DNA of 64,000 bases from Candidatus Blackburnbacteria bacterium (GTDB lineage Bacteria > Patescibacteriota > Microgenomatia > UBA8517 > UBA10165): positions 114,257 through 178,256 of the forward strand of contig JACPEJ010000001.1 in the NCBI GenBank assembly GCA_016183565.1, written 5' to 3'. Positions 1 through 61,083 of the stretch are shown piece after piece (the first letter of the stretch is position 1; every line of letters begins with the position of its first letter). The notes below the pieces were generated by a model. The model saw nothing but the letters and a program-made list of their open reading frames with translations. It searched no databases and was not told the origin of the DNA. The position numbers and the translations under genes were made by a program.

Positions 1-492
1 CCAGGCAGTTTCAACGCCTTTTGGATCTCCTCCGGCAGTCATAAATTGATAACCGGCGAAGATAAAATTAATTAGTGCATAAACTCCCGCGGCGACAACA
101 AGAACTCGCAGGATGACACCTATGAAATTACCCAGTCCTTCTGGGCCTACACTGAAGTTAGCGATTCCAGGTGGGGGGTTGATTTTTCCGAAAAGGTTGT
201 TGGAGTTGTTTGTGGTGGTTGTGCCATCTCCGGCAGGACGGGTTGTTCCTGGAGCAACGTCGTTTTCACCTGGGCAGTAAAAGCCGTTTGGACTGCCGAT
301 GCAATTACAGCCTCGATTTTCGTCAGCGCATTCTTGCCTTGTGCGGGAGTAGTTTCTTACTTTGCCGCCTTCATCTCCTGTTACTGCAGCTTGTAGTGGC
401 TTGGATGCTATTAATAGGGAAGTGAATAGGGTTAAGCTAGTAACAAAGAGGGCGAAAGCTATTTTTCTTATAGTAATATTGTGCGTTATCAT
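1..492 (-). CDS. Partial gene; the 3' end lies beyond the window start. Secreted Cys-rich protein (signal peptide MITHNITIRKIAFALFVTSLTLFTSLLIAS) whose C-terminus begins a T4SS-pilin-like domain (GVILRVLVVAAGVYALINFIFAGYQFMTAGGDPKG).
   Basis: Reverse-strand translation from the ATG at 492..490, which sits directly after the stop of the upstream pilin gene. Hydrophobic signal, several Cys, and a C-terminal TM-GG-DPKG segment matching the small pilin-like proteins at 494..796 and 2107..2412. Not in the ORF track because it runs off the window. Confidence 0.5.
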   Translation of the reverse strand, partial: MITHNITIRKIAFALFVTSLTLFTSLLIASKPLQAAVTGDEGGKVRNYSRTRQECADENRGCNCIGSPNGFYCPGENDVAPGTTRPAGDGTTTTNNSNNLFGKINPPPGIANFSVGPEGLGNFIGVILRVLVVAAGVYALINFIFAGYQFMTAGGDPKGVETAW

Positions 493-493
493 T

Positions 494-796
494 TTAGACA
501 ATTTTAATTCCAGTTATTACTTCGATCAATTGAATTATCCAGTAAGAGACGAAAATTATCAAGAAGCCGACTATTGCTGATAATAGAATTCTTTTTCCGC
601 GGCCGACCTGTTCTCTGTCACTGCTACCTGCTCCTTGAATTATTGCAAATCCGCCCCACACAATAAGTACAAGAAGAACAACTCCTGCGATAATGTAGAG
701 GTTGGATGCGAGGGCTGAGATAAGCTTTCCAACTTGGTCGACTTGGGTTATCGGAGGGCTGTATTTTTCTCCAATGTTAACTTGGGTCATTTCCAT
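494..796 (-). CDS. Small two-TM protein of the T4SS pilin-like (TrbC/VirB2-like, PF18895-type) family common in CPR
   Basis: 100 aa with two hydrophobic helices around a short Gly/charged loop (IVWGGFAIIQGAGSSDREQVGRGKRILLSAIVGF). Paralog of 2107..2412. Confidence 0.6.
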   Translation of the reverse strand: MEMTQVNIGEKYSPPITQVDQVGKLISALASNLYIIAGVVLLVLIVWGGFAIIQGAGSSDREQVGRGKRILLSAIVGFLIIFVSYWIIQLIEVITGIKIV

Positions 797-926
797 ATAT
801 ATAGTTTAACTTGAGGAATGGTTCGTTTGCAAGAAATGGGTAATTTCTTGGCCCCTTGTGATATTTCTTTGCTCTGTGTTAAAATCTCTACTATTATCCG
901 CAAGGTAAAACTGCTGTTGTAATTAA

Positions 927-1727
927 ATGAGCAACAAAGAGCTTACAGAAGGTATTCCTACGCATGTTGCAATTATTATGGATGGCAATCGCCGTTGGGC
1001 GGCGAAGCGTGGTCTTGGGCCGGTTGATGGTCACAGGTTTGCTGCAGAAAAAACTCTAAAACCCATTGTTGTTCGAGCAATTAAAAGAGGTATTAAATAC
1101 TTAACTTTGTGGGCCTTTTCTACAGAGAATAAAAAAAGGGACAAGCTGGAACTTCAGGGTTTAATGAAAATCTTTAGAGATGTTTTGAAAAGTAATCTTC
1201 GTGAACTTGAGGAACTTGGGGTACAGTTGAAGATAATAGGTGATATTGATTGGTTTCCGAAAGATATAGCGGAATTGGCAAAGGCGATTGCCGAGCGTAC
1301 AAAGAACAACAAAAAAATAACAGTTTCTTTTGCTTTAAATTATGGGGGTCGGGAAGAGATTTTGCGTGCGATCTCAAGATTACTGGATAAGATACAGACT
1401 CATCAGAGGTCGGCTGAAGAACCAGTTACAGAGGGGGAGTTTGCAAGTCTTCTTGATACTTCAGGAATGCCTGATCCTGATTTGATTGTAAGAACAGGGG
1501 GGAATCTTCGTTTGTCGGGTTATTTCCCTTGGCAGAGTGTTTATTCGGAACTTTATTTTACCAAGACTCTTTGGCCTGATTTTACACCGGCGAAACTGGA
1601 TGCAGCACTAATGGATTATACAAAAAGGATGAGAAGATTTGGTGGTGGGAGTTTTAAGGACTATACGAAAAACGTAAAACGCAAAATGCAAAACGTAGGA
1701 AAGTCATTTGGTTTGCGATTGAAATAG
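927..1727 (+). CDS. uppS: Undecaprenyl-diphosphate synthase (isoprenyl transferase)
   Basis: HVAIIMDGNRRWA, FSTENKKR, RTGGNLRLSGYFPWQSVYSELYF motifs; 266 aa. Confidence 0.9.
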   Translation: MSNKELTEGIPTHVAIIMDGNRRWAAKRGLGPVDGHRFAAEKTLKPIVVRAIKRGIKYLTLWAFSTENKKRDKLELQGLMKIFRDVLKSNLRELEELGVQLKIIGDIDWFPKDIAELAKAIAERTKNNKKITVSFALNYGGREEILRAISRLLDKIQTHQRSAEEPVTEGEFASLLDTSGMPDPDLIVRTGGNLRLSGYFPWQSVYSELYFTKTLWPDFTPAKLDAALMDYTKRMRRFGGGSFKDYTKNVKRKMQNVGKSFGLRLK

Positions 1728-2096
1728 CTTCCAAAGTAACTGTCCGCAACGATTTCTTTTTTCTGTAATCTCTTTAAAAGCGTTTGTGCTTAAATAGTTC
1801 TGATCCAAAGCAAATTCTAGTAAGTAAGTAGCTTCTGCTAGAGAACCTAGTGCTATTCTCAAAAATTGCCTGAACTCATTTTTATTATTTCTAGCATAGC
1901 CCTCAATTATATTGAGAGCCACAGAAAGTGTGGCACGTCGTAGTTGTGAGGTGAGGCCATAGGTTTCATCTTTCGGGAACGTTTTTGTCGTTTTGTAGAC
2001 TGATTTGGCCAACTCATCAGCAATTTGCCATGCTAGCAAGTTCTTGTAAAGAGGAGTGAAAGTAGTATTTTTGTCCTTATACGTTTTGCGTATCAC
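1704..2096 (-). CDS. Four-helix-bundle protein (TIGR02436, 23S rRNA intervening-sequence protein family)
   Basis: 130 aa with the characteristic LAWQIADELAKSVYKTTKTFPKDETYGLTSQLRRATLSVALNIIEGYAR pattern. Stop region overlaps the uppS 3' end convergently (1704-1727). Confidence 0.8.
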   Translation of the reverse strand: MIRKTYKDKNTTFTPLYKNLLAWQIADELAKSVYKTTKTFPKDETYGLTSQLRRATLSVALNIIEGYARNNKNEFRQFLRIALGSLAEATYLLEFALDQNYLSTNAFKEITEKRNRCGQLLWKLFQSQTK

Positions 2097-2106
2097 GTTT
2101 TACGTT

Positions 2107-2412
2107 TTACTGAAACAGATTCCCAAACTGTTTTACTCCCAACACCAACCCCAGTATTTGTACTAGCCAGAAGGCGGCGAAGATAATCACAAAGCCGATG
2201 ATTGCATGGGTGATTCTTTCTCTTGCTGCTGCAGTTCCCTTGGGATCACCTTGGGCTGTCATTATGCCGAACCCTCCCCAGATAAGATAAAGGAAGAGGA
2301 TTATTCCGGCTATGCCGAACAAATAAGGGACGAAAGCGCTTACTATTGAGCCCAGACTATTGAGCTCGGGTTTTAGACCAGCTGATTCTTGCAGTTTGTT
2401 AAAGTCAATCAT
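2107..2412 (-). CDS. T4SS pilin-like (TrbC/VirB2-like) small membrane protein, paralog of 494..796
   Basis: 101 aa with the same two-TM architecture (LFLYLIWGGFGIMTAQGDPKGTAAARERITHAIIGFVIIF). Confidence 0.6.
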   Translation of the reverse strand: MIDFNKLQESAGLKPELNSLGSIVSAFVPYLFGIAGIILFLYLIWGGFGIMTAQGDPKGTAAARERITHAIIGFVIIFAAFWLVQILGLVLGVKQFGNLFQ

Positions 2413-2413
2413 G

Positions 2414-3511
2414 TTATTTGTTAAACCCTGGTAAAGCTAAAATATCAACTCCTATTAATTTTAGCAAAAATACAGAGAAAATAATCAAGATGAGACCTGA
2501 GATTGCAGCATTTAAGAGCTCTTTTCCTCCTTGGACTTTCTCCGGGTTTCCTGAAGCGGTTGTAATTTGGAAACCAGCGATTAAGATAAGAATGAAAGCA
2601 ACTCCCCCAGCAATTCCCAAGGCCCACCTTAAGAACCAGCCGACAAATTGGTTGGTGTCTCTTATGGGGATACAACCCACCGCAGTTTGGATAGCTTCTC
2701 TTGAGGGATCGCAAAAGGTGGGCTCAAATCCCAAGAGGGGTGTTGACGTGTAACCGGCGTCAGTTTCCTGGTTATCTATAGGATTGCCGGGTGTACCAAC
2801 GTCAAACTTTAGTGAATTGCAACGTGTACCTACCCACGGGGTAAGGATAGCAACTGGTCCTTGTTTGAGCTGTTGTAGTTCTGCTTTGTATCCTCGACCT
2901 GCAGTAGAGATTTGGTCTATCAGGAGTGTAAAAGAACCATCAGAAGATAAGCTGGGACTAAAGTATTTGTTATCACCAGGGCCTGAAATGGATAGCCGGT
3001 ATACAGAACCAGTGGGGGGTGTGGGCACACTGATTCCTCTAACTGTTAAATTTGTGTTTGTATCAAAAGCAGCGGTTCCAGCAGGGTTATCGCCGGAAAT
3101 ATTTAGTTTACAACCAGGAGTTACCGCATAAGTTCTTTTACAAAGGGGGGCGTCTTTGCCCTCTTGGATAAGTTGAATTTCGTGTCTACTAGGAACTTCA
3201 TCGAAAATCCTGTCTGAGCAGACTCCCCATCTGAAAGTGTGGGAAATCGTGTTGTCTGGATTCGGAGCTTGATTTGGAGATTCTTGTTTATTACCACAAC
3301 TCAATGTCCGATTCGTTATAATTCTGATCCTGAATTTTTTTCCTGTTGCGCCCATGTTAGGGAAGCCCATTTTGAACTCAACAGATCTGTCGCTGCTTTT
3401 AATTCTTTCTGGTGTGAGGGTACAGATATCTTGCGCATTTACTCTTTGGGGGAGTACAAGAAAAGCTACAACTATTATTATCAGTAGGCCTATTAGTTTT
3501 TTCATCGCCAT
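2414..3511 (-). CDS. Secreted Cys-rich protein with a C-terminal T4SS-pilin-like two-TM domain (pilin fusion / possible tip adhesin)
   Basis: Start most likely at the internal MAMKKLIGLLIIIVVAFLVLPQRVNA signal peptide (ATG at 3511) rather than the ORF-track start at 3664. About 8 Cys in the ectodomain. The C-terminal 75 aa (FVGWFLRWALGIAGGVAFILILIAGFQITTASGNPEKVQGGKELLNAAISGLILIIFSVFLL) is homologous to the standalone pilin-like proteins. Confidence 0.55.
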   Translation of the reverse strand: MAMKKLIGLLIIIVVAFLVLPQRVNAQDICTLTPERIKSSDRSVEFKMGFPNMGATGKKFRIRIITNRTLSCGNKQESPNQAPNPDNTISHTFRWGVCSDRIFDEVPSRHEIQLIQEGKDAPLCKRTYAVTPGCKLNISGDNPAGTAAFDTNTNLTVRGISVPTPPTGSVYRLSISGPGDNKYFSPSLSSDGSFTLLIDQISTAGRGYKAELQQLKQGPVAILTPWVGTRCNSLKFDVGTPGNPIDNQETDAGYTSTPLLGFEPTFCDPSREAIQTAVGCIPIRDTNQFVGWFLRWALGIAGGVAFILILIAGFQITTASGNPEKVQGGKELLNAAISGLILIIFSVFLLKLIGVDILALPGFNK

Positions 3512-3532
3512 TTCAAGTTTATCACAGCCCAC

Positions 3533-5362
3533 TTGGTTGTTGCTAGGGATAGTCGGGAAGGGGGTGTTTGGGGCTGGTATAATGGGAGAGTGCAATCCTT
3601 CGATAAAACTCAGGACAAGAGTGCAAAGTGCAATCCTTCGATAAAACTCAGGACAAGAGTGCAAAGTTGGAAGAGCCTATTAATAAAATCCTTCTTTATT
3701 TTGCTGTTAACAATAATTTTTCGCTTTCCAGTGGTTGCAAGCAATTGTCCGGAGAAGGATTACGATTGTCAGATCCAAGAAATTCAGCGGGATATAGATC
3801 AAATAAAACCTGCGCATGAGAAAAATAAGTCGGATTTGGCGGGTTTGAGAAAACAAATACAAAACATACGTGCAAAGATTTTTGACATATCAACGCAGTT
3901 AAATAATTTAGAAAAAGATATTTTAGACAGAGAAGAAAAGTTGGCTTTGCGTGAGGAACTCTTTAACCAAAAGTCAAAACGTCACTATATTGTTCTTCGT
4001 CAGTACGACCCCTTGGCACCATTCTTACTTGCTGAGTCAGCAACTGATCTTTTGCGGCAGGTGGCAATAAGAAAAAGAATTATTGCCGAAGATCAAAAGG
4101 AAATATTAAAATTGGCAGAGCAGATTTCTTCTTTGGAAAAAGATAGAGAAACTTTAAAAACAAGCAGGGCTTCTTTGACCTCTTCCCAACAGCAGTTGGA
4201 TAAAAAAGCTGAGTTTTTGGCGGGTGAGGTTGCAAAGGTCGAGTCATATCTTGCTGGTCTTACTTCTAAGCAGAAGAATTTGCTGGCTCAAAAACTTGCG
4301 AGTCTTAATCTTCCGACTAGTCTTGGTGCGGGACCTCTTTTGTGTACGGATGATAGAAAGCTGGATCCTGGGTTTAGTCCGGCTTTTGCGCTCTTTACTT
4401 ATGGAATTCCGCACAGGGTGGGGTTGAATCAGTACGGTGCGTATGGGCGAGCGAAGCTTGGACAAAATTACCAAGATATCTTGAGGGCATATTACGATGG
4501 GATTTCTATTGAGAAGAGGTCGAATGTTAATTTGAAAGTTAAGGGGTATGGGGAGATGCCCTTGGAGCAGTATTTGTTGGGTATTTATGAGATGCCTGGA
4601 GATTGGCCTGCAGAGGCTTTGAAGGCTCAGGTGGTTGCGGCTCGTTCTTATGCTTTGGCTTATACGGACAATGGGGCGAAAGAGATATGTACGACACAGG
4701 CTTGTCAGGTTTATAAAGGCGGGAGTAAAGGGGGGAATTGGGAAGCTGCAGTTCGGGCGACTGAGGGAGAGACACTTGTGTCCGGAGGTCAGCCGATTAC
4801 GGCTTGGTATGCGTCGACTTTTGGAGGGTATGCCTTAAGGTCGGATGATGTTGGTTGGTCCCCGCGTCCTTGGACCAAAAGGTTGAGGGATACGCTAGGC
4901 GATGTTGGTAATTTTGGGGAGTTAAATGAGAGGGCTTATGATAAGGATTCTCCTTGTTTTTATGCAGCGCAGGGTTTCAGAAAAGAGTATGCAAAATCAG
5001 CTTGGCTTAAAAGTGAGGAGGTTGCGGATATAGTTAATGTTTGGCTTTTAGGGAGTCGTGATCCATCTACCCAAAATCATCTTTCGCAAGTGGATAGGTC
5101 TAATCCTGATGGGGTGGAGACATGGGATACAGTGAGAGTTCGGCAGGAATTGCAGAGTCGTGGCTTGACTCCATATACAAGTGTTTCTAGTGTTTCTGTG
5201 AGCGGATGGGATACAAGTGTTGGAAAAACCAATTCTGTTTCCATAGAAGGGAATGCCGGAACCCAGACTATTTCTGCGGATGAGTTTAGGAATTTTTTCA
5301 ATTTGCGTGCACCCGGAAATATACAGATAGTAGGACCGTTGTTTAATGCAGAACGGAGGTGA
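3533..5362 (+). CDS. Coiled-coil protein with a C-terminal SpoIID/LytB-like domain (peptidoglycan-remodelling amidase enhancer family). The N-terminus is uncertain.
   Basis: SpoIID-like block LEQYLLGIYEMPGDWPAEALKAQVVAARSYALAYTDNGAKEICTTQACQVYKGG, with a long coiled-coil N-terminal half. The ORF-track start is a TTG at 3533 that reads through the tandem repeat. A signal-like segment KSLLIKSFFILLLTIIFRFPVVAS follows the repeat, so the real start is probably downstream (for example the TTG at 3704). Confidence 0.6.
   Translation: MVVARDSREGGVWGWYNGRVQSFDKTQDKSAKCNPSIKLRTRVQSWKSLLIKSFFILLLTIIFRFPVVASNCPEKDYDCQIQEIQRDIDQIKPAHEKNKSDLAGLRKQIQNIRAKIFDISTQLNNLEKDILDREEKLALREELFNQKSKRHYIVLRQYDPLAPFLLAESATDLLRQVAIRKRIIAEDQKEILKLAEQISSLEKDRETLKTSRASLTSSQQQLDKKAEFLAGEVAKVESYLAGLTSKQKNLLAQKLASLNLPTSLGAGPLLCTDDRKLDPGFSPAFALFTYGIPHRVGLNQYGAYGRAKLGQNYQDILRAYYDGISIEKRSNVNLKVKGYGEMPLEQYLLGIYEMPGDWPAEALKAQVVAARSYALAYTDNGAKEICTTQACQVYKGGSKGGNWEAAVRATEGETLVSGGQPITAWYASTFGGYALRSDDVGWSPRPWTKRLRDTLGDVGNFGELNERAYDKDSPCFYAAQGFRKEYAKSAWLKSEEVADIVNVWLLGSRDPSTQNHLSQVDRSNPDGVETWDTVRVRQELQSRGLTPYTSVSSVSVSGWDTSVGKTNSVSIEGNAGTQTISADEFRNFFNLRAPGNIQIVGPLFNAERR
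3590..3665. repeat. Perfect tandem duplication, 2 x 38 bp (gtgcaatccttcgataaaactcaggacaagagtgcaaa)
   Basis: Read directly: copy 1 at 3590-3627 and copy 2 at 3628-3665. Lies just downstream of an extended -10 (TGGTATAAT, 3574-3582) in the divergent region between the 3511(-) and 3533(+) genes. The period is not a multiple of 3. Confidence 0.85.
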
Positions 5363-5427
5363 CAATTTGGCCTGTAAGAGGTAGAATAGGTTAATAATTT
5401 ATAATTTTAAATTGAAAAATTTTTACA

Positions 5428-6066
5428 ATGCCTGATTTATATATTTCTAACACCAACAAAGTACAGACTTCTCGGCCTGAGGATAAACATCATGCACCTG
5501 GTCATACCCGCAATCCTTTTGCTGCGTATTCCTACAAGCCTGGTAACGCTCGCTTTGAGACACAGGAGCTTGAGGAAAAGATTGTTCTTCTTTTAAGAAA
5601 GCATCCTATTACGAATATTCCGTGGATTGTACTTTCTCTTGCTTTGGCGTTAGCTCCTTTGGTCTTTGGTTTTATTCCGTTGGCTACTTTTTTTCCGGTG
5701 CAGTTCCAAACGGGGGCTATTTTGCTTTGGTATCTTTTAGTTGTGGCTATAGTTTTAGAAGGTGCTCTTTCTTGGTTTTTTAATGTTTATATGATTACAG
5801 ATGAACGGATAATTGATGTTGATTTTTATAATCTTATTTACAGGGAGATTTCTGATGCCAAAATAGATAGGATACAAGACGTTACTTATAAGATGGGAGG
5901 TGTGGTAGGGACTTTGTTTAATTACGGAGATGTGGTGATTCAGACTGCTGGGACAATACCCAACTTTGATTTTATTGCAGTTCCTAATCCGGCTGAGGTT
6001 GCAAGAGTTTTACAGATTTCCAGAACTGAGGAGGAAGTTGAAGCGATGGAAGGGAGAGTAAGATGA
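5428..6066 (+). CDS. Membrane protein with a bacterial PH domain (bPH_2/DUF304, YdbT-like)
   Basis: Two TM helices followed by a YMITDERIIDVDF...GDVVIQTAG pattern typical of bPH_2. Confidence 0.5.
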   Translation: MPDLYISNTNKVQTSRPEDKHHAPGHTRNPFAAYSYKPGNARFETQELEEKIVLLLRKHPITNIPWIVLSLALALAPLVFGFIPLATFFPVQFQTGAILLWYLLVVAIVLEGALSWFFNVYMITDERIIDVDFYNLIYREISDAKIDRIQDVTYKMGGVVGTLFNYGDVVIQTAGTIPNFDFIAVPNPAEVARVLQISRTEEEVEAMEGRVR

Positions 6067-6281
6067 TTGTAGATTTCAATCAGCCAGTTTTGCTTTTAAC
6101 AAAAGTATTTTTTCTTTTCGCGTTTTTTATTTACATTATTTTTGCAACAGTTGTTGTTCGACAGGTATATCTTATGACGAATACCTTGGAAGTTGGTTTT
6201 GAGAGTCAGTTAAGGATAATTTCCTGGCTTCATCTTTTATTGGCAATTGGTGTGTTTTTGTTTGCACTGGTAGCTCTTTAA
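6063..6281 (+). CDS. Small two-TM hypothetical membrane protein, translationally coupled to the upstream gene (ATGA overlap)
   Basis: 72-aa hydrophobic ORF with a 4-nt overlap with the preceding gene. Confidence 0.35.
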   Translation: MIVDFNQPVLLLTKVFFLFAFFIYIIFATVVVRQVYLMTNTLEVGFESQLRIISWLHLLLAIGVFLFALVAL

Positions 6282-6283
6282 AG

Positions 6284-8131
6284 ATGTTCTTAACCACTGC
6301 CAAAATCCTTGGGCTACCCACAAGACGATCTTGGGCCCAAGTTTATAGTTTTACCCCGGATGAGGAGCTTCTTTCTTCTTGTGGTTCGCTTGTTACTATT
6401 GCAGCTCTTACGACTACACTTGAGCCTGATCCAACACAGCCTATTGAGAATGAAGTGGTGATTAAGGTTGGCAAAGATGTGTTGACTGGGTTTCAAGAGG
6501 AGTATTTTAAAGGACAGGGTACTCCTTTTAAGAAGCTTAATGATGCGACTCAAAAGGTGGTATCACTTGTTACTCAAGATATAGATAGGTTGGAGCTTTT
6601 GAACTGTGTGTTGTGGAAGCAATATGTTTATTTTTGTGTGGTGGGTGGTGGGGAGGTTTGGGTTTCTAAAGATGGGCGTCTTTCTAATTTACTTAAGTTG
6701 CAACCAGTTGATGGGGGGGTAGTTTGTATTTCCGGGAAGCTTACTGGGAATGAGGTGTTTTTGTTTGGGACGTCTCACTTTTTTGCTTCTGTTGATGGTT
6801 TTTCACTTGAGGAGATTTTTGCAAAAACCCAGATTCCTGATCAAATAGCGGATAATCTTAACCCTTTGGTGCATCGGAAAAATAATCCTTTAGCTGCTGC
6901 TGCTGTGTTTCAAGCGCGGCCTTCTTTTTCTCAGTCTGGCGTAGAGAAGGTTAAGGGTTTTTCAACAAACTTTTTTAAGAGAAAGCTTGTGGAGTTTGCC
7001 CAAAAGCTTCCTGAGAGCAGCGTGTACATTAAGAAAGAAGAACGGCCACGGCGTACTGCTTTGTCGATAGGGGCAGTACTTTTGGTGATATTGAGTGTTA
7101 GCATATTTTTTGGTTTGAGACAAAAGGATGTGAATGAAAGGAAACTCCTTTATGAGAATCGTTTAACTGAGGCCCGCACTTTATATAGTGATGCTTTGGA
7201 AACATTTGGCGTGGATAGAGATCAAGCGCGTTCTAAATTTTCTGCGGCTAGGGGTATTGTGGGGACATTGTTGGCAGAAGGGGTGAAGGATATTGAGCTT
7301 GATCGGTTAGATAGTCAAATGAAACAAGAGGAGGGTGCTATTTTAGGACGAGTAGAGGTTGTCCCTTCTCTTTTTACTGATCTTTCCATTTTTCGATCGG
7401 GAATTACAGCTCTGGAGATTGTACTTCATAAAGATAAAATTGCAGTGTTTGATACAACGGGCGAGAGATTTTTTCTGGTTTCTCTAGCGACCAAGGAGAC
7501 ATTGGCTTTGGGGGGAAGTGGTAAAACCGCCTCTCCGCAGGGTGTAGCTATATATGACGGGCGTGTGTTTACCTTGACAGAGAAGGGGATTGTAGAGATT
7601 GATAAACAGGGTACTGTGGAGACAGTTGTTGAGTTAGATAGTGAGTGGGGTGGCATTTCAAAAATTGGTGTTTTTGGTGGGAATGTTTATCTTCTTTCAA
7701 AAGATGGAGCTATTTGGAGATATCCTAGGGTTGAAGCGGGTTTTGCTGCGAAGCAAGCTTGGCTTTCGGAAGATATGGTGGTAGATTTTTCTGGTGTTCA
7801 AGACTGGACCATAGACGGATCTATCTGGCTACTGTCCTCAAACGGTGAAATTTCAAAATTTACTCGCAGAGCGCGAGATAGTTTTCGTCCCTCTGGCGTA
7901 GAAGGTGGTCTATCAAATTCGACCGCTATTTACACCAATGAAGACCTGGGGTCAATTTTTGTATTGGATAAAGCTCAAGGGAGAATAGTTGAGGTTGAGA
8001 AGAACGGAAAGCGTAAACTTGAGTATAGGAGTGAGGAGTTAAAAACAGCCTATGATTTGGTAGTCTCAAAAGAACTAGGTAAGATTTTTGTTCTTCAGGA
8101 GAGTAGGATTTTAGAGATACCTCTAAGGTAG
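6284..8131 (+). CDS. Hypothetical single-pass membrane protein (cytoplasmic N-domain, TM at ALSIGAVLLVILSVSIFFGL, repeat-rich extracytoplasmic C-domain)
   Basis: 615-aa ORF in frame with no recognisable catalytic motif. The C-terminal half has repeated beta-strand-like segments. Confidence 0.4.
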   Translation: MFLTTAKILGLPTRRSWAQVYSFTPDEELLSSCGSLVTIAALTTTLEPDPTQPIENEVVIKVGKDVLTGFQEEYFKGQGTPFKKLNDATQKVVSLVTQDIDRLELLNCVLWKQYVYFCVVGGGEVWVSKDGRLSNLLKLQPVDGGVVCISGKLTGNEVFLFGTSHFFASVDGFSLEEIFAKTQIPDQIADNLNPLVHRKNNPLAAAAVFQARPSFSQSGVEKVKGFSTNFFKRKLVEFAQKLPESSVYIKKEERPRRTALSIGAVLLVILSVSIFFGLRQKDVNERKLLYENRLTEARTLYSDALETFGVDRDQARSKFSAARGIVGTLLAEGVKDIELDRLDSQMKQEEGAILGRVEVVPSLFTDLSIFRSGITALEIVLHKDKIAVFDTTGERFFLVSLATKETLALGGSGKTASPQGVAIYDGRVFTLTEKGIVEIDKQGTVETVVELDSEWGGISKIGVFGGNVYLLSKDGAIWRYPRVEAGFAAKQAWLSEDMVVDFSGVQDWTIDGSIWLLSSNGEISKFTRRARDSFRPSGVEGGLSNSTAIYTNEDLGSIFVLDKAQGRIVEVEKNGKRKLEYRSEELKTAYDLVVSKELGKIFVLQESRILEIPLR

Positions 8132-8367: not shown

Positions 8368-8557
8368 AAAACCAGTTTAGCAAAAATGTCCCACGTCGCG
8401 TGAAGCTATGCGGGACACCACACTATTTTTGCTTCTTGGTGCCGCGAAGCCTAGTAGAAAGTAGATAAAAATGCCCCACTACGCATAAAGCTTCGTTAGG
8501 GCACACTTCATGCGGTGGCTGCGCCACGCGAAGCCCCGCTGAATGCGGGGCGAAGTG

Positions 8558-8917
8558 TGGAGATGGAGGGATTTGAACCCTCATCCGGAAAAACACGATT
8601 GAACGCCTCTACAAGCTTAGTTTATTGATAAATTGTCGCAAAACATCCTCAATAGACAAAAGTAATAGTTTTGCCAAGATCAAAACTTAAATCAAAGCTG
8701 ATCAAACTTTGATCGCATCCTATATTTCGGTTTACACCCGTGTAATGCCGTTAGGAGAGCAAGGCACAGATGCCAGCTTTAAGCAGCGTATGCGTACTCA
8801 AAAGCTGGGGCGTAGGTTTTATCCTCGCCGTTTAAAGTTTTAACCCTGTTTAACGAGTATGAGTCGAACTCGGCCTGCAGCGTGTCAAAGTGCTCTTTCG
8901 TCGAAACCTGTCATCCC
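8558..8917 (-). ncRNA. ssrA: tmRNA (ssrA)
   Basis: Reverse complement starts GGGGATGACAGGTTTCGACG...GCAGGCCGAG...CTCGTTAAACAGG, matching the canonical tmRNA 5' region. It ends with the T-arm GAGGGTTCAAATCCCTC plus acceptor CATCTCC-A, which pairs with the 5' GGGGATG including a G3:U70 pair. Internal tag reading frame GGC GAG GAT AAA ACC TAC GCC CCA GCT TTT GAG TAC GCA TAC GCT GCT TAA. Sits immediately downstream of smpB. CCA is not encoded. Confidence 0.8.
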
Positions 8918-8947
8918 CGTGTCGAAATTTATTCTACAAGTTTTGGT

Positions 8948-12552: not shown

Positions 12553-12626
12553 TGGCGTGACGTAATAAATTCTGCGAATTTAAGCGTCACAGCAACGTTT
12601 AAATTGCTTTGCAATTTATTACGTTG

Positions 12627-12713
12627 CGGTGGGAGTGGGATTCGAACCCACGATACCTTGCGGTATACGGCTTTTCCAAAACCGCGCACTAGGCCAAACT
12701 ATGCGATCCCACC
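12627..12713 (-). tRNA. tRNA-Ser (anticodon GGA), class II with long variable arm
   Basis: Reverse complement GGTGGGATCGCATAGTTTGGCCTAGTGCGCGGTTTTGGAAAAGCCG...GTGGGTTCGAATCCCACTCCCACCG. Anticodon loop TTGGAAA. CCA is not encoded. Confidence 0.8.
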
Positions 12714-12718
12714 TTGTG

Positions 12719-12790
12719 CGCACCCACCCAGAATCGAACTGGGATCAGTTGCTCCGCAAGCAACTACTCTATCCGTTAAGCTATGGGTGC
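12719..12790 (-). tRNA. tRNA-Arg, anticodon read as GCG (unusual and should be verified)
   Basis: Reverse complement GCACCCATAGCTTAACGGATAGAGTAGTTGCTTGCGGAGCAACTGATCCCAGTTCGATTCTGGGTGGGTGCG. Anticodon stem GTTGC/GCAAC, loop TTGCGGA. The D-arm resembles bacterial tRNA-Arg. Confidence 0.65.
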
Positions 12791-12817
12791 AGGAATTTTT
12801 AGGAGATTTTTACGTTG

Positions 12818-12901
12818 CGGAGGGTACAGGATTCGAACCTGTGAGGGCTTGCGCCCACAAGTTTTCAAAACTTGCGCCATGAACCTCTCGGCCAACCCTC
12901 C
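12818..12901 (-). tRNA. tRNA-Ser (anticodon TGA)
   Basis: Reverse complement GGAGGGTTGGCCGAGAGGTTCATGGCGCAAGTTTTGAAAACTTGTGGGCGCAAGCCCTCACAGGTTCGAATCCTGTACCCTCCG. Anticodon loop TTTGAAA, long variable arm. Confidence 0.8.
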
Positions 12902-12906
12902 TAGGG

Positions 12907-12991
12907 CGGTGGAGGTGGGATTCGAACCCACGTGCCCCTTGCGGAGCGAGGCTTAGCAAGCCCCTGCCATCGGCCACTAGGCGACTCCACC
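12907..12991 (-). tRNA. tRNA-Ser (anticodon GCT)
   Basis: Reverse complement GGTGGAGTCGCCTAGTGGCCGATGGCAGGGGCTTGCTAAGCCTCGCTCCGCAAGGGGCACGTGGGTTCGAATCCCACCTCCACCG. Anticodon loop TTGCTAA, long variable arm. Confidence 0.8.
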
Positions 12992-13046
12992 TTACGCTTA
13001 GATTATATCAGATTTTGTGGTATAATTATACTCAGCACGAGACTAT

Positions 13047-13565
13047 ATGGATTCACCAGAGAATGCCCAATCCAGTGCTGGTAGTCGTTCTTTGACAAAG
13101 GAACTTTTTTCTTGGAAAGCGCCGGTTCGGCCGTTCAAGAGGCGTAATAAAGAATTTTTCACTACGGTTTTGGCGATTGCTCTTTTACTGTCAATAATCT
13201 TTTTTACGATTAGTGGCATAATGCCTGTGATTGTTATCTTCTCTCTTGTTTTTTTGGTGTATATTCTTTCTACGATTTCACCTGAGGAGGTTGAGCACAA
13301 AATAACGAACAAGGGTGTTGTGTTTGCAGGTAAGCAGTATTATTGGACGGATCTTTTGCGGTTTTGGTTTGTTGAGAGGTTTGGGAGTAGTCTTTTGGTT
13401 CTTGAAACCACAAAACTTCCTGGTCGTTTGGAGATGGTGGTTGATCCTCAAGAGAAAGAGAAAATTAAGGGGTTATTGGTTGGCCATATTGATCTTGAAG
13501 AAGCTGCGCCAAGTTTTATGGATAAAACAGCGGCTTGGTTGTCAAGAAGAGTTCCTTTAGATTAA
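13047..13565 (+). CDS. Hypothetical membrane protein (two TM plus a possible PH-like C-domain)
   Basis: 172-aa ORF with hydrophobic helices at 40-85; architecture similar to 5428..6066. Confidence 0.4.
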   Translation: MDSPENAQSSAGSRSLTKELFSWKAPVRPFKRRNKEFFTTVLAIALLLSIIFFTISGIMPVIVIFSLVFLVYILSTISPEEVEHKITNKGVVFAGKQYYWTDLLRFWFVERFGSSLLVLETTKLPGRLEMVVDPQEKEKIKGLLVGHIDLEEAAPSFMDKTAAWLSRRVPLD

Positions 13566-13577
13566 ATTTGGTAAGTT

Positions 13578-13651
13578 GCACCCGTAGCTCAGTTGGATAG
13601 AGCGTGGGATTCCGGATCCCAAGGTCGGTGGTTCAAATCCACCTGGGTGCG
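13578..13651 (+). tRNA. tRNA-Arg (anticodon CCG)
   Basis: GCACCCGTAGCTCAGTTGGATAGAGCGTGGGATTCCGGATCCCAAGGTCGGTGGTTCAAATCCACCTGGGTGCG. Anticodon arm TGGGA-TTCCGGA-TCCCA. Confidence 0.85.
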
Positions 13652-13693
13652 CAAGAATTTAAAATTACTGCTGCCCTAAAAAAAGGTGCAGAT

Positions 13694-14128
13694 ATGAGTG
13701 AACAACTGGTAGCTGGAGCTACTGTTTATAGAAAAAGGAATGGTTCACCTCCTCTTTGGCTTGTTATTAAAAATGAACAAGATGGGGACTGGGAACTACC
13801 TAAGGGGTTAGTTCGACGCGGAGAATCCTCTGTTGGTTCTATCTTGAGAATTTTGCGTGAAGAGGGGGGTATGGTTGTTGAGATTATAGAAGAAGCAGGT
13901 CGTGCTACTGCTTCTAGAACTAAAAATGGCAGTAGGTCAACAGATAAAATTATTTTTTACCTGAGCGAGATGCATTCTAGTCTTTTTTCAGAGTCTATTT
14001 ATTATACTCAGGAAAAATGGCTAGCTTACAGTCGAGCTAAAAAGGCTTTAGGGTTGGAGAGAGAGAAGAGAATTTTGAAACAGGCAAATGATACCCTTAA
14101 AGAATGCCTTAAGAAAAGAAAAAACTGA
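13694..14128 (+). CDS. NUDIX hydrolase
   Basis: Nudix box GLVRRGESSVGSILRILREEGG. Start taken at the MSEQLV methionine, because the ORF-track start (13604) overlaps tRNA-Arg. My manual base counting around 13690 was off by one, so the start coordinate is good to about 1 nt. Confidence 0.75.
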   Translation: MSEQLVAGATVYRKRNGSPPLWLVIKNEQDGDWELPKGLVRRGESSVGSILRILREEGGMVVEIIEEAGRATASRTKNGSRSTDKIIFYLSEMHSSLFSESIYYTQEKWLAYSRAKKALGLEREKRILKQANDTLKECLKKRKN

Positions 14129-14144
14129 TACGCAAATTCTCTAA

Positions 14145-14234
14145 GGTGGGATGTCAGAGTGGTTTATTGGCCAGGTCTCGAAAACCTTGGAGGGAGTAAT
14201 CCCTACGGAGGTTCAAATCCTCCTCCCACCGCCA
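14145..14234 (+). tRNA. tRNA-Ser (anticodon CGA), CCA encoded
   Basis: GGTGGGATGTCAGAGTGGTTTATTGGCCAGGTCTCGAAAACCTTGGAGGGAGTAATCCCTACGGAGGTTCAAATCCTCCTCCCACCGCCA. Anticodon loop CTCGAAA with a C27:U43 mismatch at the top of the stem; long variable arm. Confidence 0.75.
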
Positions 14235-58651: not shown

Positions 58652-59500
58652 TTACAGGGCGAGAGCTATACCGAGGAACAGGACTATTGCGCCTGCTATG
58701 GCAAGCATGATGGTTGGTAGGCTGGTTCCGGAGACAGGTAGAGAGTCACCGGATACTGTTGGGGTTACGGTTGTTGCTTTTTTAGTAGGTGTTGGGGTGG
58801 AGGTTGTTTGAGTGCCACCTGCTGGTTTGGTTGTTGGTGTTGGTGTAGTTTGAGTACCCCCACCACCTGATCCGCCAGTTTGGGTGGGGGTTGGAGTGGG
58901 GCTTGCCCCTACGGCTTGAGTAGGAGTGGGGGTTGTGTCTGGTGAGGTGGTGGGTGTTGGGGTTGGCGTTGGTGCAAGGATGGTGATACTTGTGCCAGTT
59001 TTGTTAACTATAATGTCTGTGCTTGCGCCTTCGCCAATTCCCCTACCTTTAGTTTGGGTGCCGAAGTCTACAATGGTAGTACCTGGGGATTTTCCTTTAA
59101 ATTTTAAAGTTGCCAGGATGCCTTCCCCTTGCGGTGGGTTGGCGGGTTGGGCGCCATAAGTAACAGAAGCTGTACCTGTGGTATTGTCTATTGCCGGTTG
59201 TACGAATATATTTGGCAGGAAGGTGCCTGGTGTAATTTCTTTTAATTCTAATTTCTGGGGGTCGAAGGTTATGTGAAGTTCTGCTCCGGTGGTGGTATTT
59301 GTTACAGTGTTCATGTTAACAGAGAGGTCGATTTCATCCCCAACTTTTATAGTATTTGTAGGAGGCAATATTGAAAGTGTACTTGCAGGAGCTGCCTTTT
59401 TCCTCATTTCTTGTTGTCTTTGAACGAGGAATAGACCAGCGACTAAGCCTAGAGCCAAAATAATGAAAATAACGATTCCTATGATTATTTTCTTGTTCAT
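58652..59500 (-). CDS. Cell-surface protein: signal anchor, cohesin-like domain, Thr/Pro-rich linker, C-terminal LPVSG-type sorting signal and TM
   Basis: Cohesin-like ELHITFDPQKLELKEITPG...GEGILATLKFKG...TTIVDFG. TPTPT linker. C-terminal SLPVSGTSLPTIMLAIAGAIVLFLGIALAL. Confidence 0.5.
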   Translation of the reverse strand: MNKKIIIGIVIFIILALGLVAGLFLVQRQQEMRKKAAPASTLSILPPTNTIKVGDEIDLSVNMNTVTNTTTGAELHITFDPQKLELKEITPGTFLPNIFVQPAIDNTTGTASVTYGAQPANPPQGEGILATLKFKGKSPGTTIVDFGTQTKGRGIGEGASTDIIVNKTGTSITILAPTPTPTPTTSPDTTPTPTQAVGASPTPTPTQTGGSGGGGTQTTPTPTTKPAGGTQTTSTPTPTKKATTVTPTVSGDSLPVSGTSLPTIMLAIAGAIVLFLGIALAL

Positions 59501-59546
59501 ATGTAGTTAAAGAGATTTTTTCTCTTCAAAAAGATCTTTTATATAT

Positions 59547-60116
59547 CTATTGGACTCTTACTATAGAGCTTGCTTCTGTCTGAGCAATATTTCCGGTTTT
59601 ACCCAGAGCGACAACTTTTGTTTCATTGGCTAAAGAGATGTTGGTTGCACCTTCTTTTACTCCAAGGATTTTTAGATGAGCAAGGTTTCCCTTTCCTGGT
59701 TTTGGGGTGAGAGTTCCTATTGTAAAGATGGCTTTACCTTCTTTGTTGTCCACTTGATTAAGAAAGATAGTGGGTTTTTCCAAGAAGTCTCCATATAAAA
59801 TGTCGACTATTTTTACTACTGTTGGATCAAATTTAATTTTTAGTTCCGCGCCAGTGATTTTTTCCTCTGGGGCATCAATGGTTATGGTGACAGTTGTTTC
59901 TTTATTTGCTTTTACAACAAGCTCTTTGGGTAATAGGTAAATACGCGAGGAGTTAACAATTGCTTCCTGCTCTTGTTTTAAGGGAGGCGTTGTATTTGAT
60001 GAAGTTATTTTTTGAGTAGAGTCAATTGTAAAAACTAGTGCAAGCAAAACAGTAACGCACAAAATTGAGATTTTCCACTCTTGTGGGTTGGCAGAGTCCA
60101 TTATCTTAGTATGCAA
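59547..60116 (-). CDS. Secreted cohesin-like domain protein
   Basis: Signal/TM, then ELKIKFDPTVVKIVDILYGDFLEKPTIFLNQVDNKEGKAIFTIGTL...GNLAHLKILG, paralogous to 58652..59500. Confidence 0.45.
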   Translation of the reverse strand: MHTKIMDSANPQEWKISILCVTVLLALVFTIDSTQKITSSNTTPPLKQEQEAIVNSSRIYLLPKELVVKANKETTVTITIDAPEEKITGAELKIKFDPTVVKIVDILYGDFLEKPTIFLNQVDNKEGKAIFTIGTLTPKPGKGNLAHLKILGVKEGATNISLANETKVVALGKTGNIAQTEASSIVRVQ

Positions 60117-60152
60117 GTGTTAGTACAAAAACGCAAGAGGATGTAGGGATTT

Positions 60153-61082: not shown

Positions 61083-61083
61083 G

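What the first reader, a model, noticed from the sequence alone, without database searches (positions are those of the whole stretch)
1..3664. Two paralogous loci pairing a T4SS-pilin-like small protein with a large Cys-rich secreted protein that ends in the same pilin domain
There are two standalone two-TM pilin-like genes (494..796 and 2107..2412, TrbC/VirB2-like). Each sits next to a large secreted, cysteine-rich protein whose last 75 aa reproduce the whole pilin-like module: TM1, then G-x-Q/M-x-x-G-D/N-P-x-K, then TM2. In the first locus the pilin stop is followed directly by the fusion gene's start codon at 492; in the second the fusion gene precedes the pilin. A large ectodomain fused to a polymerising pilin module suggests a tip-adhesin or minor-pilin arrangement for host attachment in an episymbiotic CPR cell. 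I do not know of a characterised example. Paralogous duplication within 4 kb argues for function rather than chance.
Basis: partly seen in the sequence, partly recalled or inferred. Interest (0 to 1): 0.75.

Follow-up and report, generated by a model that had tools for sequence, protein, structure and literature searches.

The report
Pilus-subunit gene array with surface domains
The left edge of this window, from an ultra-small 'Candidatus Blackburnbacteria' (CPR/Patescibacteria) genome, holds the first four of eight conserved genes for secretion-system-type pilus subunits; two of them carry an extra, fast-evolving surface domain, a design that is very common in metagenomes, that I did not find described, and that may be how these cells contact their hosts.

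Summary
Window 1-3664 (minus strand) encodes two small two-helix PF18895 'T4SS_pilin' proteins (494-796, 2107-2412). It also encodes two Sec-signal proteins that end in the same module. One is 363 aa (2414-3505). The other starts at 492 and is cut by the window edge; its full length is only 206 aa. These are not two duplicated pairs. They are the first four genes of an eight-gene pilin array that continues about 2 kb beyond the window. A secreted wall-enzyme-like protein and a polytopic protein follow; the polytopic protein's model matches only TrwI/VirB6 and DotA. Each of the eight genes has a position-specific ortholog in four other Microgenomatia genomes. The ectodomains are hypervariable (8-22% identity) while their pilin modules are conserved (53-73%). 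The large ectodomain models as two Ig-like sandwiches. About 5,200 cluster representatives share this architecture. In 29 of 31 surveyed genomes the large type lies next to a small pilin or the VirB6-like gene. No VirB4 lies within 16 kb to the left or in the 64-kb window. Patescibacterial VirB2-like pilin arrays are published (2018-2025); ectodomain-bearing 'modular' pilins and the Microgenomatia VirB6 candidate were not found in the papers searched. Verdict: new variant of a known kind, moderately interesting.

The parts
2414..3505 (-). fus2: 363-aa modular pilin (NCBI HYU80_00610). It has a signal peptide (aa 1-24, cleavage after VNA), two Ig-like beta-sandwich domains (aa ~28-130 and 132-237; nt 2795-3424), a neck with the invariant Cys265/Cys278 and motif TAVGCIP (nt 2663-2719), and a C-terminal VirB2-like helical hairpin (aa 284-355; nt 2417-2656). 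An alternative start is ATG 3511.
   Evidence: PF18895 28.8 bits; P0001 100% identical; invariant columns; AF2 pLDDT 88.6; generic tandem Ig-like matches; ectodomain 20-22% vs module 55-73% identity to orthologs
2107..2412 (-). pil2: 101-aa small pilin-like protein, start one base after the fus2 stop (TAA-C-ATG)
   Evidence: PF18895 45.4 bits; TrbC E 0.0016; NF045849 36.4 bits, below the cut-off of 40; positional orthologs 47-70%
1704..2096 (-). Inserted 23S_rRNA_IVP four-helix-bundle gene, bracketed by 29-nt inverted repeats (1669-1697 / 2080-2108). It is a passenger within the array, not a pilin.
   Evidence: present at the same place in L003/L004, L007 and L008, absent in L005
927..1727 (+). 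uppS (undecaprenyl-diphosphate synthase family, PF01255) embedded between the two halves of the array. It is conserved there in most relatives.
494..796 (-). pil1: 100-aa small pilin-like protein
   Evidence: PF18895 32.4 bits; orthologs 46-54%
1..492 (-). fus1, N-terminal 164 aa of a 206-aa protein cut by the window edge. It has a signal peptide (cleavage after LQA), a ~64-aa four-Cys and Thr/Asn-rich ectodomain, then helix 1 and the loop of the pilin module. Helix 2 lies outside the window (L001 3127-3747).
   Evidence: L001 100% identical to window 1-3618; PF18895 20.9 bits, E 3.7e-4
3589..3664 (.). Perfect 38-bp tandem repeat (2 copies) in the divergent intergenic region upstream of fus2 and of the SpoIID-like gene. 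It may be regulatory. It explains the spurious 416-aa ORF and the contig break in L001.
   Evidence: not found in the other loci
3533..5362 (+). Divergent SpoIID/LytB-domain protein (coiled coil plus peptidoglycan lytic-transglycosylase domain; true start probably ~40 codons downstream). It is a conserved neighbour of the array in every syntenic locus.

Best explanation
Window 1-3664 is the proximal end of a conserved Microgenomatia gene cluster. The cluster encodes the membrane and pilus part of the Patescibacteria type-IV-secretion-like apparatus. It holds eight differentiated VirB2-like (PF18895) subunits, a secreted cell-wall-enzyme-like protein, a small membrane protein, and a divergent VirB6/DotA-like polytopic platform. 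Six subunits are plain two-helix pilins.

Two subunits (fus2 and fus1) are 'modular pilins'. The Sec system exports the N-terminal part and signal peptidase trims it. The C-terminal hairpin then inserts with both ends outside and the basic G-G-D-P-K loop inside, the VirB2 topology. This leaves a folded ectodomain on the outer face: two Ig-like sandwiches in fus2 and a small four-Cys knot in fus1.

Inferred mechanism, by analogy with R388: the hairpins are recruited from the membrane by the VirB6-like pentamer and stacked into a short heteropolymeric pilus or stalk. The bulky fus2-type subunit has the most conserved hairpin and the most variable head. It would enter first or sparsely and sit distally, serving as the host-contact (VirB5-like) element that these systems otherwise lack. 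Its head would diversify with host surface.

What is shown: family membership, topology logic, fold of the ectodomain, conserved synteny, hypervariable head on a conserved module, and linkage to the VirB6-like gene. What is inferred: polymerisation, position in the filament, adhesin role, and dependence on a VirB4 encoded elsewhere.
For: Family: PF18895 is above the cut-off for pil1, pil2, fus2 and for three of the four further array genes; the fourth scores 26.3 against 26.6, and fus1 scores 20.9 bits (E 3.7e-4). TrbC/VirB2 hits are sub-threshold.

Array: L001/L010 are 100% identical to window 1-3618 and show fus1 (206 aa), four more pilins, a 421-aa secreted protein, a 134-aa TM protein and a 468-aa polytopic protein.

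Orthology: each of the 8 genes has its best match at the same array position in 4 other genomes, in 31 of 32 comparisons.

Conserved module, variable head: fus2 ectodomain 20-22% against module 55-73%; fus1 8-22% against 53-64%. In the homolog search most hits share only the C-terminal ~90 aa, at 50-80% identity.

Fold: the AF2 model (pLDDT 88.6) shows two beta-sandwiches, a beta-hairpin neck and a 33+35-residue helical hairpin. Matches are to tandem Ig-like, MG and BIg domains, including the adhesin SiiE and the matrix protein RbmA.

Neighbourhood: of 31 fus2-type genes in GTDB genomes, 14 are followed at once by a small pilin and 15 are convergent with the VirB6-like gene.

Family size: 5,179 cluster representatives at E<=1e-30; the top 150 are 169-730 aa.

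Literature: pilin arrays are essential in S. epibionticum and sit next to a VirB6-like gene; SEML1_0015 has PF18895 at residues 115-180, so it is fus1-like (PMC10633639). VirB6 is the VirB2 recruitment and assembly platform with VirB5 at the tip (PMC9259494). No adhesin or VirB5 has been found in Patescibacteria or pCF10 systems (PMC12102498; bioRxiv 10.64898/2025.12.18.695078).
Against: No pilus made of PF18895 proteins has been seen, and the Pfam name is an annotation. A profile of the pilins finds no solved T4SS pilin by sequence, only designed helical hairpins with a GDP loop. No VirB4, VirD4 or any P-loop ATPase lies within 16 kb to the left or in the 64-kb window to the right, nor within 10 kb in relatives. 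VirB4 presence in Blackburnbacteria rests on a published table for other assemblies. The Foldseek E-values for VirB6 are modest (7e-3 to 3e-2) and TM-scores are 0.37-0.45. A 240-aa head on every subunit would be hard to pack in a VirB2 lattice, so polymerisation of fus2 itself is uncertain. In arrangement B no small pilin is adjacent. Co-assembly could not be modelled because no multimer tool was available.
Confidence: 0.55

Rival explanations
1. The hairpin is a membrane anchor, not a polymerising subunit. On this view fus2/fus1-type proteins are ordinary surface proteins (adhesins, enzymes or wall-associated proteins). The PF18895 hairpin holds them permanently in the cytoplasmic membrane. 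It perhaps docks laterally to the VirB6-like protein or to small-pilin oligomers, but it never leaves the membrane.
For: Thousands of proteins carry unrelated ectodomains on the same module, the pattern of a generic display or sorting module. No ATPase that could extract subunits is encoded nearby. A bulky head is sterically awkward in a VirB2 lattice. In 15 loci there is no adjacent small pilin.
Against: A mere anchor would not need 55-80% identity over ~90 residues, including loop and neck, across genera while the neighbouring small pilins diverge more. It would not be expected to be homologous to the seven other array members. Nor would it be expected to keep tight linkage to pilin genes or to the VirB6-like gene in 29 of 31 genomes.
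Confidence: 0.27
2. The genes are variant pilin cassettes for antigenic or host-range variation, as in Bartonella Trw or Anaplasma virB2 paralogs. On this view the eight genes are interchangeable alternative major pilins generated by recent tandem duplication, which was the first reader's 'paralogous duplication'.
For: The genes form a tandem array of divergent pilin genes. The literature itself suggests this reading for Patescibacteria arrays (PMC12102498). The fus2 head is hypervariable between species.
Against: Each position has its own ortholog across Blackburn-, Woese- and other Microgenomatia genomes, and orthologs (35-73%) are closer than paralogs (22-45%). This indicates ancient, non-redundant subunits. 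Gene number and order are stable (7-8 modules in most complete loci, 10 in one). All six array members are essential in S. epibionticum (file 1), which argues against redundancy.
Confidence: 0.08
3. The proteins are not pilins at all. On this view the PF18895 proteins are small two-TM membrane proteins of another function (holin-like, channel or c-ring-like oligomers, or envelope-biogenesis factors), and the T4SS label is a misnomer. The cluster would belong with the neighbouring wall genes (SpoIID, uppS, M14/beta-lactamase-like enzyme).
For: No sequence match to solved pilins was found. Conserved neighbours are cell-wall genes. VirB4 is absent from the neighbourhood.
Against: There are sub-threshold but repeated TrbC/VirB2 and Mycoplasma ICE pilin-like hits. 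The arrays lie inside the VirB4/VirB6 cluster in Saccharibacteria (PMC10633639). A VirB6/DotA-like fold is encoded in the same cluster here. T4SS loci normally include wall hydrolases (VirB1), so the wall-gene neighbours do not count against a T4SS reading.
Confidence: 0.1

Closest known systems
VirB2-like pilin arrays of the Patescibacteria T4SS (S. epibionticum SEML1_0014-0019; TM7x 'array of small signal-peptide proteins'; 441 arrays in 383 assemblies)
   Same: Same Pfam family (PF18895, with weak PF04956). Tandem arrays of 2-11 divergent genes that are most abundant in Microgenomatia and Saccharimonadia. They are sometimes interrupted by non-pilin genes and lie next to a VirB6-like gene. 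One Saccharibacteria member (SEML1_0015) has a fus1-like N-terminal extension (PMC12102498; PMC10633639; bioRxiv 10.1101/258137).
   Different: Here the array is far from any VirB4. It is headed by a 363-aa member with two Ig-like domains. The papers searched describe small pilins only, state that no adhesins were detected, and report VirB6 as scarce in Microgenomatia.
R388/Agrobacterium VirB6 platform with VirB5 tip and VirB2 pilus (PMC9259494)
   Same: Polytopic VirB6-like protein encoded with VirB2-like subunits. The proposed logic is that membrane pilins are recruited by VirB6 and that a distal element contacts the target.
Bartonella Trw (trwL/trwJ amplification) and Anaplasma/Ehrlichia virB2 paralogs
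   Same: Multiple tandem VirB2 paralogs in a host-associated bacterium, thought to broaden host-surface binding.
   Different: Those are recent, similar copies of small pilins, and the adhesin variants are separate VirB5 proteins. Here the paralogs are ancient and position-specific, and the variable part is fused to the pilin module. The comparison rests on the literature cited in PMC12102498 and on my own knowledge.
Modular type IV pilins (e.g. Streptococcus sanguinis PilB/PilC) and large minor pseudopilins such as GspK
   Same: Same concept: a polymerising pilin module with a grafted functional domain that ends up exposed, often at the tip, next to several differentiated minor pilins.
   Different: Unrelated protein family (type IV pilin fold, N-terminal pilin module, PilD processing). 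This resemblance is recalled from memory and was not tested here.
PrgF of pCF10 (VirB2-like protein of a Gram-positive T4SS; bioRxiv 10.64898/2025.12.18.695078)
   Same: Small two-helix VirB2-like protein in a monoderm MPF-FATA-type system, predicted to form a pilus. No VirB5-like tip was found.
   Different: Single small gene, no array and no ectodomain-bearing form. Homology to the proteins here was not tested.

Membership tests
Pfam PF18895 T4SS_pilin | Score at or above the gathering cut-off (26.6 bits) over most of the 71-position profile | tested here: met
   pil1 32.4, pil2 45.4 and fus2 28.8 bits. The array members outside the window score 26.3 (just below), 32.1, 37.0 and 40.4. fus1 full length scores 20.9 bits, below the cut-off (E 3.7e-4), and is assigned by homology to the others.
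Pfam PF18895 T4SS_pilin | Two long hydrophobic helices joined by a short basic loop | tested here: met
   Hydropathy segments. The AF2 hairpin has helices 284-316 and 321-355 in fus2. The loop G-G-D-P-K is nearly invariant (G46, G55, D56, G73) in 29 aligned pilins.
TrbC/VirB2 conjugative pilins (PF04956) | Significant sequence match to the TrbC/VirB2 profile | tested here: not met
   Best E values are 0.0016 (19.0 bits), 0.008 and 0.12, all below the cut-off of 27.9. No solved T4SS pilin is found by a profile of 29 sequences. The relation is therefore remote: the proteins resemble VirB2 but are not shown to be members.
TrbC/VirB2 conjugative pilins (PF04956) | Polymerises with phospholipid into an extracellular filament | not testable with these tools
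   Needs microscopy, biochemistry or multimer modelling.
Patescibacteria VirB2-like pilin array (PMC12102498) | [quoted passage not shown] | tested here: met
   Eight module-bearing genes lie within ~9 kb, four of them in the window. They are interrupted by the IVP gene and uppS.
Patescibacteria VirB2-like pilin array (PMC12102498) | Located near virB4 (true for 1135 of 1948 assemblies in the paper, so not obligatory) | tested here: not met
   No P-loop ATPase or VirB4 family hit in the 20 large ORFs of the window, in 16 kb to the left, or within 10 kb in relatives.
Type IV secretion system (any class) | VirB4 ATPase encoded in the genome | not tested
   The rest of the 686-kb contig could not be reached. 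Four other Blackburnbacteria assemblies are listed as VirB4-positive in Table S1 of PMC12102498.
VirB6/TrbL (and DotA) polytopic T4SS platform, for the 468-aa protein P0099 outside the window | Sequence match to TrbL/VirB6 profiles | tested here: not met
   No Pfam family at E<=1. No PDB sequence hit with a single sequence or with a profile. All 198 homologs are annotated as hypothetical and have no Pfam domain.
VirB6/TrbL (and DotA) polytopic T4SS platform, for the 468-aa protein P0099 outside the window | Fold similarity to solved VirB6-class proteins | tested here: met
   [not shown]
VirB5 tip adhesin | Homology to VirB5/TraC-type proteins | tested here: not met
   The fus2 ectodomain is a pair of Ig-like sandwiches, whereas VirB5 is helical (own knowledge). 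Any equivalence would be functional analogy only.
Diversity-generating retroelement target (considered because an Avd-like IVP gene is adjacent) | Reverse transcriptase plus template/variable repeat pair | tested here: not met
   No TR/VR-type repeat in window 1-6000 or L001. The Avd model scores 29.7 bits against a cut-off of 80. No RT is seen in the neighbourhood gene lists.

The most novel reading that the evidence does not exclude
Patescibacterial (at least Microgenomatia) T4SS-like machines build a heteropolymeric pilus from about eight dedicated VirB2-like subunits on a previously unrecognised, highly divergent VirB6. The pilus tip or surface would be formed by 'modular VirB2 pilins', whose hypervariable Ig-like heads replace VirB5 and cell-wall adhesins. 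These heads would be the primary determinants of which host cell an episymbiont can attach to. They form a family of thousands of proteins that could be read as a host-range code.
Probability: 0.25. Interest if true: 0.8.

Novelty: new variant of a known kind. Interest (0 to 1): 0.55.

Why it matters
A 2024 perspective (PMC11665869) calls the role of the T4SS in Saccharibacteria 'completely unknown', although the system and its pilin array are essential for epibiotic growth in the one species tested. Published surveys found no adhesin and few VirB6 homologs in Microgenomatia. This locus supplies candidates for both. One is a very large family of pilin-module proteins with fast-evolving Ig-like heads. 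The other is a conserved polytopic protein with a VirB6/DotA-like fold. The two are linked genomically in 29 of 31 genomes. If the heads mediate host contact, they give a direct, testable handle on host specificity of uncultivated CPR bacteria. They would also be the first case of domain-grafted VirB2-class pilins. If they are only anchors, the result still defines a widespread surface-display module for annotation.

Tried and rejected
(1) Looked for further pilin modules in the 64-kb window with an HMM built from the four modules. None was found beyond the four.

(2) Looked for T4SS ATPases. I ran Pfam on 20 large window ORFs, scanned for Walker A motifs in all flanks, and extended 16 kb to the left. 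Only housekeeping genes and, in some relatives, ClpB-like ATPases turned up.

(3) Ran a sequence search of the pilin profile against PDB. It gave only designed helical hairpins sharing a GDP helix-capping loop, so it is not informative.

(4) Searched PDB and Pfam for the 421-aa secreted protein, the 468-aa polytopic protein, the 134-aa, 676-aa and 458-aa neighbours. Nothing significant emerged. The SLT-like reading of the 421-aa protein rests only on motifs seen by eye (E…G[AP]MQ…Y.G) and on a Peptidase_C39_2 domain in one distant homolog.

(5) Considered a DGR targeting the variable head, because of the adjacent Avd-like IVP gene. There is no RT and no TR/VR repeat, so I rejected it.

(6) Considered the conserved 'TA[VIL]GC' as a lipobox. 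I rejected it because it is not preceded by a signal-peptide h-region. It models as a beta-hairpin with two invariant Cys, so a disulfide is likely.

(7) The promoter/terminator scan was not above shuffles.

(9) The first attempt at a genome scan with the 98-sequence alignment failed because no conserved stretch was found. It succeeded with 11 sequences.

Full report
**What is in the window**

On the minus strand of window 1-3664 there are, in order of transcription, five genes. fus2 runs 2414-3505 (listed as a 416-aa TTG ORF to 3664). pil2 runs 2107-2412 and encodes 101 aa. A 23S_rRNA_IVP four-helix-bundle gene runs 1704-2096. pil1 runs 494-796 and encodes 100 aa. The last gene starts at ATG 492 and runs off the window (fus1; 164 aa visible). 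uppS (927-1727) lies on the plus strand between the two halves.

Both junctions are tight. The fus2 stop and the pil2 start read TAA-C-ATG. The pil1 stop and the fus1 start read TAA-A-ATG.

The 416-aa ORF is an over-extension. It reads through a perfect 38-bp tandem repeat at 3589-3664. The NCBI protein HYU80_00610, of a Candidatus Blackburnbacteria MAG, is 363 aa and starts MKKL.

**Is the shared module real?**

Pfam PF18895 (T4SS_pilin, gathering cut-off 26.6 bits) scores 32.4 for pil1, 45.4 for pil2 and 28.8 for the C-terminus of fus2. TrbC/VirB2 (PF04956) reaches only E 0.0016, and the Mycoplasma ICE pilin-like model NF045849 scores 36.4 bits against a cut-off of 40.

Pairwise BLASTP between the modules gives E values of 1e-7 to 2e-11. 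Real alignment scores lie 5.6-11.5 standard deviations above shuffles confined to 10-residue blocks, which preserve the hydropathy pattern. The exception is the weak pair fus1-pil1 (z 3-5). So the similarity is homology, not composition.

An HMM of the modules finds no further copy in the 64-kb window.

A public contig (L001/L010) is 100% identical to window 1-3618 and continues to the left.

- fus1 is only 206 aa. It has a signal peptide, a ~64-aa ectodomain with four Cys and a Thr/Asn-rich linker, then the hairpin (PF18895 20.9 bits, E 3.7e-4).
- Four more pilin genes follow, of 123, 111, 131 and 104 aa. They score 26.3, 32.1, 37.0 and 40.4 bits.
- Next come a 421-aa secreted Cys-rich protein, a 134-aa membrane protein and a HepT/MNT toxin-antitoxin pair on the other strand.
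- Then come a 468-aa polytopic protein (HYU80_00540) and a 676-aa protein on the other strand.
- Beyond these are unrelated genes.

The finding is therefore the first half of one eight-gene array, not two duplicated pairs.

**Conservation**

The same order recurs in other Microgenomatia genomes (L003/L004, L005, L007, L008). That order is a divergent SpoIID gene, a fus2-type gene, a small pilin, (IVP, uppS), a pilin, a fus1-type gene, 3-5 pilins, a secreted enzyme-like protein, a small TM protein, and a polytopic protein.

In reciprocal comparison, each of the eight genes finds its best match at the same array position in these four genomes, in 31 of 32 comparisons. Orthologs are 35-73% identical. 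Paralogs within the genome are only 22-45% identical, with fus1-pil1 at 22% and fus2-pil2 at 29%. These are ancient, differentiated subunits, not a recent duplication and not interchangeable cassettes.

**The two extended proteins**

Both have canonical signal peptides (…VNA|QD and …LQA|AV). Their ectodomains are essentially unalignable between orthologs, while their modules are well conserved:

| Protein | Ectodomain identity | Module identity |
|---|---|---|
| fus2 | 20-22% | 55-73% |
| fus1 | 8-22% | 53-64% |

In a search of 5.8 billion proteins, 98 hits of 200-530 aa were returned. About ten share the fus2 ectodomain. The rest share only the last ~90 residues, at 50-80% identity. The shared motif is C…TA[VIL]GCIP…W.L.WA.GIAGG.AFLL…GFQIMT.SGNPEK.Q.G.ELL.AAISGLILIIFSVFLLKLIGV.IL..PGF, and the heads are unrelated and often Cys-rich.

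An exhaustive profile search of 1.84 billion cluster representatives finds 5,179 proteins at E<=1e-30 and 7,802 at E<=1e-10. The top 150 are 169-730 aa. The architecture is thus very common in metagenomes.

AlphaFold2 (pLDDT 88.6) models fus2 in five parts:

- a signal helix;
- two beta-sandwich domains (residues 28-130 and 132-237);
- a linker;
- a beta-hairpin neck carrying the invariant Cys265/Cys278;
- a 33+35-residue helical hairpin.

Foldseek matches are to generic tandem Ig-like, macroglobulin and BIg domains. They include the adhesin SiiE and the biofilm matrix protein RbmA.

**Link to a T4SS**

No VirB4, VirD4 or other P-loop ATPase is encoded among the window's 20 large ORFs, in 16 kb to the left, or within 10 kb in relatives. 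Other Blackburnbacteria assemblies are listed as VirB4-positive in PMC12102498 Table S1, so the ATPase is probably elsewhere in the genome.

The 468-aa polytopic protein has no Pfam or PDB sequence match, and all of its 198+ homologs are annotated 'hypothetical'. Its model (pLDDT 81) gives a clearer signal:

- With Foldseek, five of the six best PDB hits are chains of the R388 VirB5-VirB6 stalk entries.

This is a fold-level assignment of moderate strength. It matters because the 2025 survey reported VirB6 as scarce in Microgenomatia and suspected extreme divergence.

In a scan of GTDB species genomes, 31 fus2-type genes were recovered. Of these, 14 are followed at once by a small pilin (as here), 15 are convergent with the VirB6-like gene at a short distance, and 2 have neither. 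One locus duplicates L005.

**What is already known**

Arrays of small signal-peptide proteins related to VirB2 were noted in Saccharibacteria in 2018 (bioRxiv 10.1101/258137). In S. epibionticum the T4SS cluster contains a VirB6-like gene followed by six PF18895 pilins. All are essential, and one of them (SEML1_0015) has the domain at residues 115-180, so it is fus1-like (PMC10633639).

[quoted passage not shown] It compared them with Bartonella Trw and stated that no adhesins were detected (PMC12102498). A 2025 review and a 2025 preprint on PrgF extend VirB2-like pili to monoderm systems and note the lack of a VirB5-like tip.

In the papers I could search, none discusses pilin-module proteins with large folded ectodomains. 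The library is incomplete, so this absence is not proof.

**Mechanism proposed**

In R388, VirB2 subunits in the membrane are recruited by a VirB6 pentamer and stacked beneath a VirB5 tip (PMC9259494). By analogy, I propose that the eight hairpins are substrates of the VirB6-like platform. I further propose that the fus2-type protein is a distal, host-contacting subunit, because it has the most conserved hairpin, the most variable head, and the tightest linkage to the platform gene. fus1 would be a second, smaller decorated subunit.

Family membership, topology, fold, synteny and the evolutionary pattern are shown. Polymerisation, position in the filament and an adhesin role are inferred.

The main rival is that the hairpin is only a membrane anchor (confidence 0.27). 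The variant-cassette reading and the 'not a pilin' reading are less likely.

**Verdict**

The array itself is a known kind. The modular, Ig-headed VirB2-like pilins and the Microgenomatia VirB6 candidate are a new variant worth follow-up. Interest is 0.55.

Noticed in passing
window 3589-3664: Perfect 38-bp tandem repeat (2.1 copies, AGTGCAATCCTTCGATAAAACTCAGGACAAGAGTGCAA) in the divergent intergenic region between fus2 and the SpoIID-like gene. It is not present in any of the 42 related loci, and a public short-read contig breaks inside it. It could be a recent duplication of an operator or promoter element, or an assembly artefact.
   Followed up: partly
window 1669-1697 and 2080-2108 (flanking 1704-2096): 29-nt inverted repeats (86% complementary, each made of ~7-nt ACGCAAA-type units) exactly bracket the 23S_rRNA_IVP four-helix-bundle gene. 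This gives an IVS-like 'ORF in the loop of a long stem' cassette inserted between pil2 and uppS. The cassette is present at the same place in some relatives and absent in L005, which suggests a mobile or RNase III-processed element.
   Followed up: partly
[not shown]
   Followed up: yes
L001 5366-6631 (left of the window); homologs in L004, L005, L012, L038, L009: Secreted Cys-rich protein after the array has conserved E…G[AP]MQ…Y.G motifs that by eye resemble lytic transglycosylase motifs. A distant homolog (L038) adds a Peptidase_C39_2 domain. In L007 the equivalent position holds a Peptidase_M14 plus Beta-lactamase2 protein. It may be a VirB1-like wall-remodelling slot.
   Followed up: partly
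L001 9381-11411 (-) and 11492-12868 (+): A conserved 640-940-aa Gly/Arg/Glu-rich protein with no detectable domain lies on the opposite strand after the VirB6-like gene in all arrangement-A loci. It is followed here by a 458-aa protein with a weak C-terminal J-domain-like HPD motif. Function unknown.
   Followed up: no
window 3533-8131 (+): A block conserved next to the array in all syntenic loci: a SpoIID/LytB protein with an N-terminal coiled coil, a bPH_2 membrane protein (5428-6066), a 72-aa DUF5657-like membrane protein (6063-6281), and a 615-aa single-pass protein with a probable beta-propeller-like C-terminal half (6284-8131, no Pfam hit). tmRNA (8557-8918) follows.
   Followed up: partly
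L029, L030, L034, L036, L038, L009: In genomes where the fus2-type gene is convergent with the VirB6-like gene, an unusually long ClpB-like double-AAA ATPase (770 aa, cut by a contig end, to 1,600 aa) recurs within a few kb.
   Followed up: no
window 12626-14234: Cluster of six tRNA genes (four Ser, two Arg) on both strands around two short ORFs. There is also a tRNA-Cys at 31275-31349.
   Followed up: no
window 58652-63885 (-): Other candidate surface proteins: a cohesin-domain protein (58652-59500) and a 933-aa subtilase with FG-GAP repeats (61084-63885).
   Followed up: no
L011-L042 record titles: Many of the GTDB-representative MAGs carrying this Microgenomatia-type locus are deposited under the title 'uncultured Gammaproteobacteria bacterium'. 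This is evidently a submitter placeholder and not their taxonomy.
   Followed up: no
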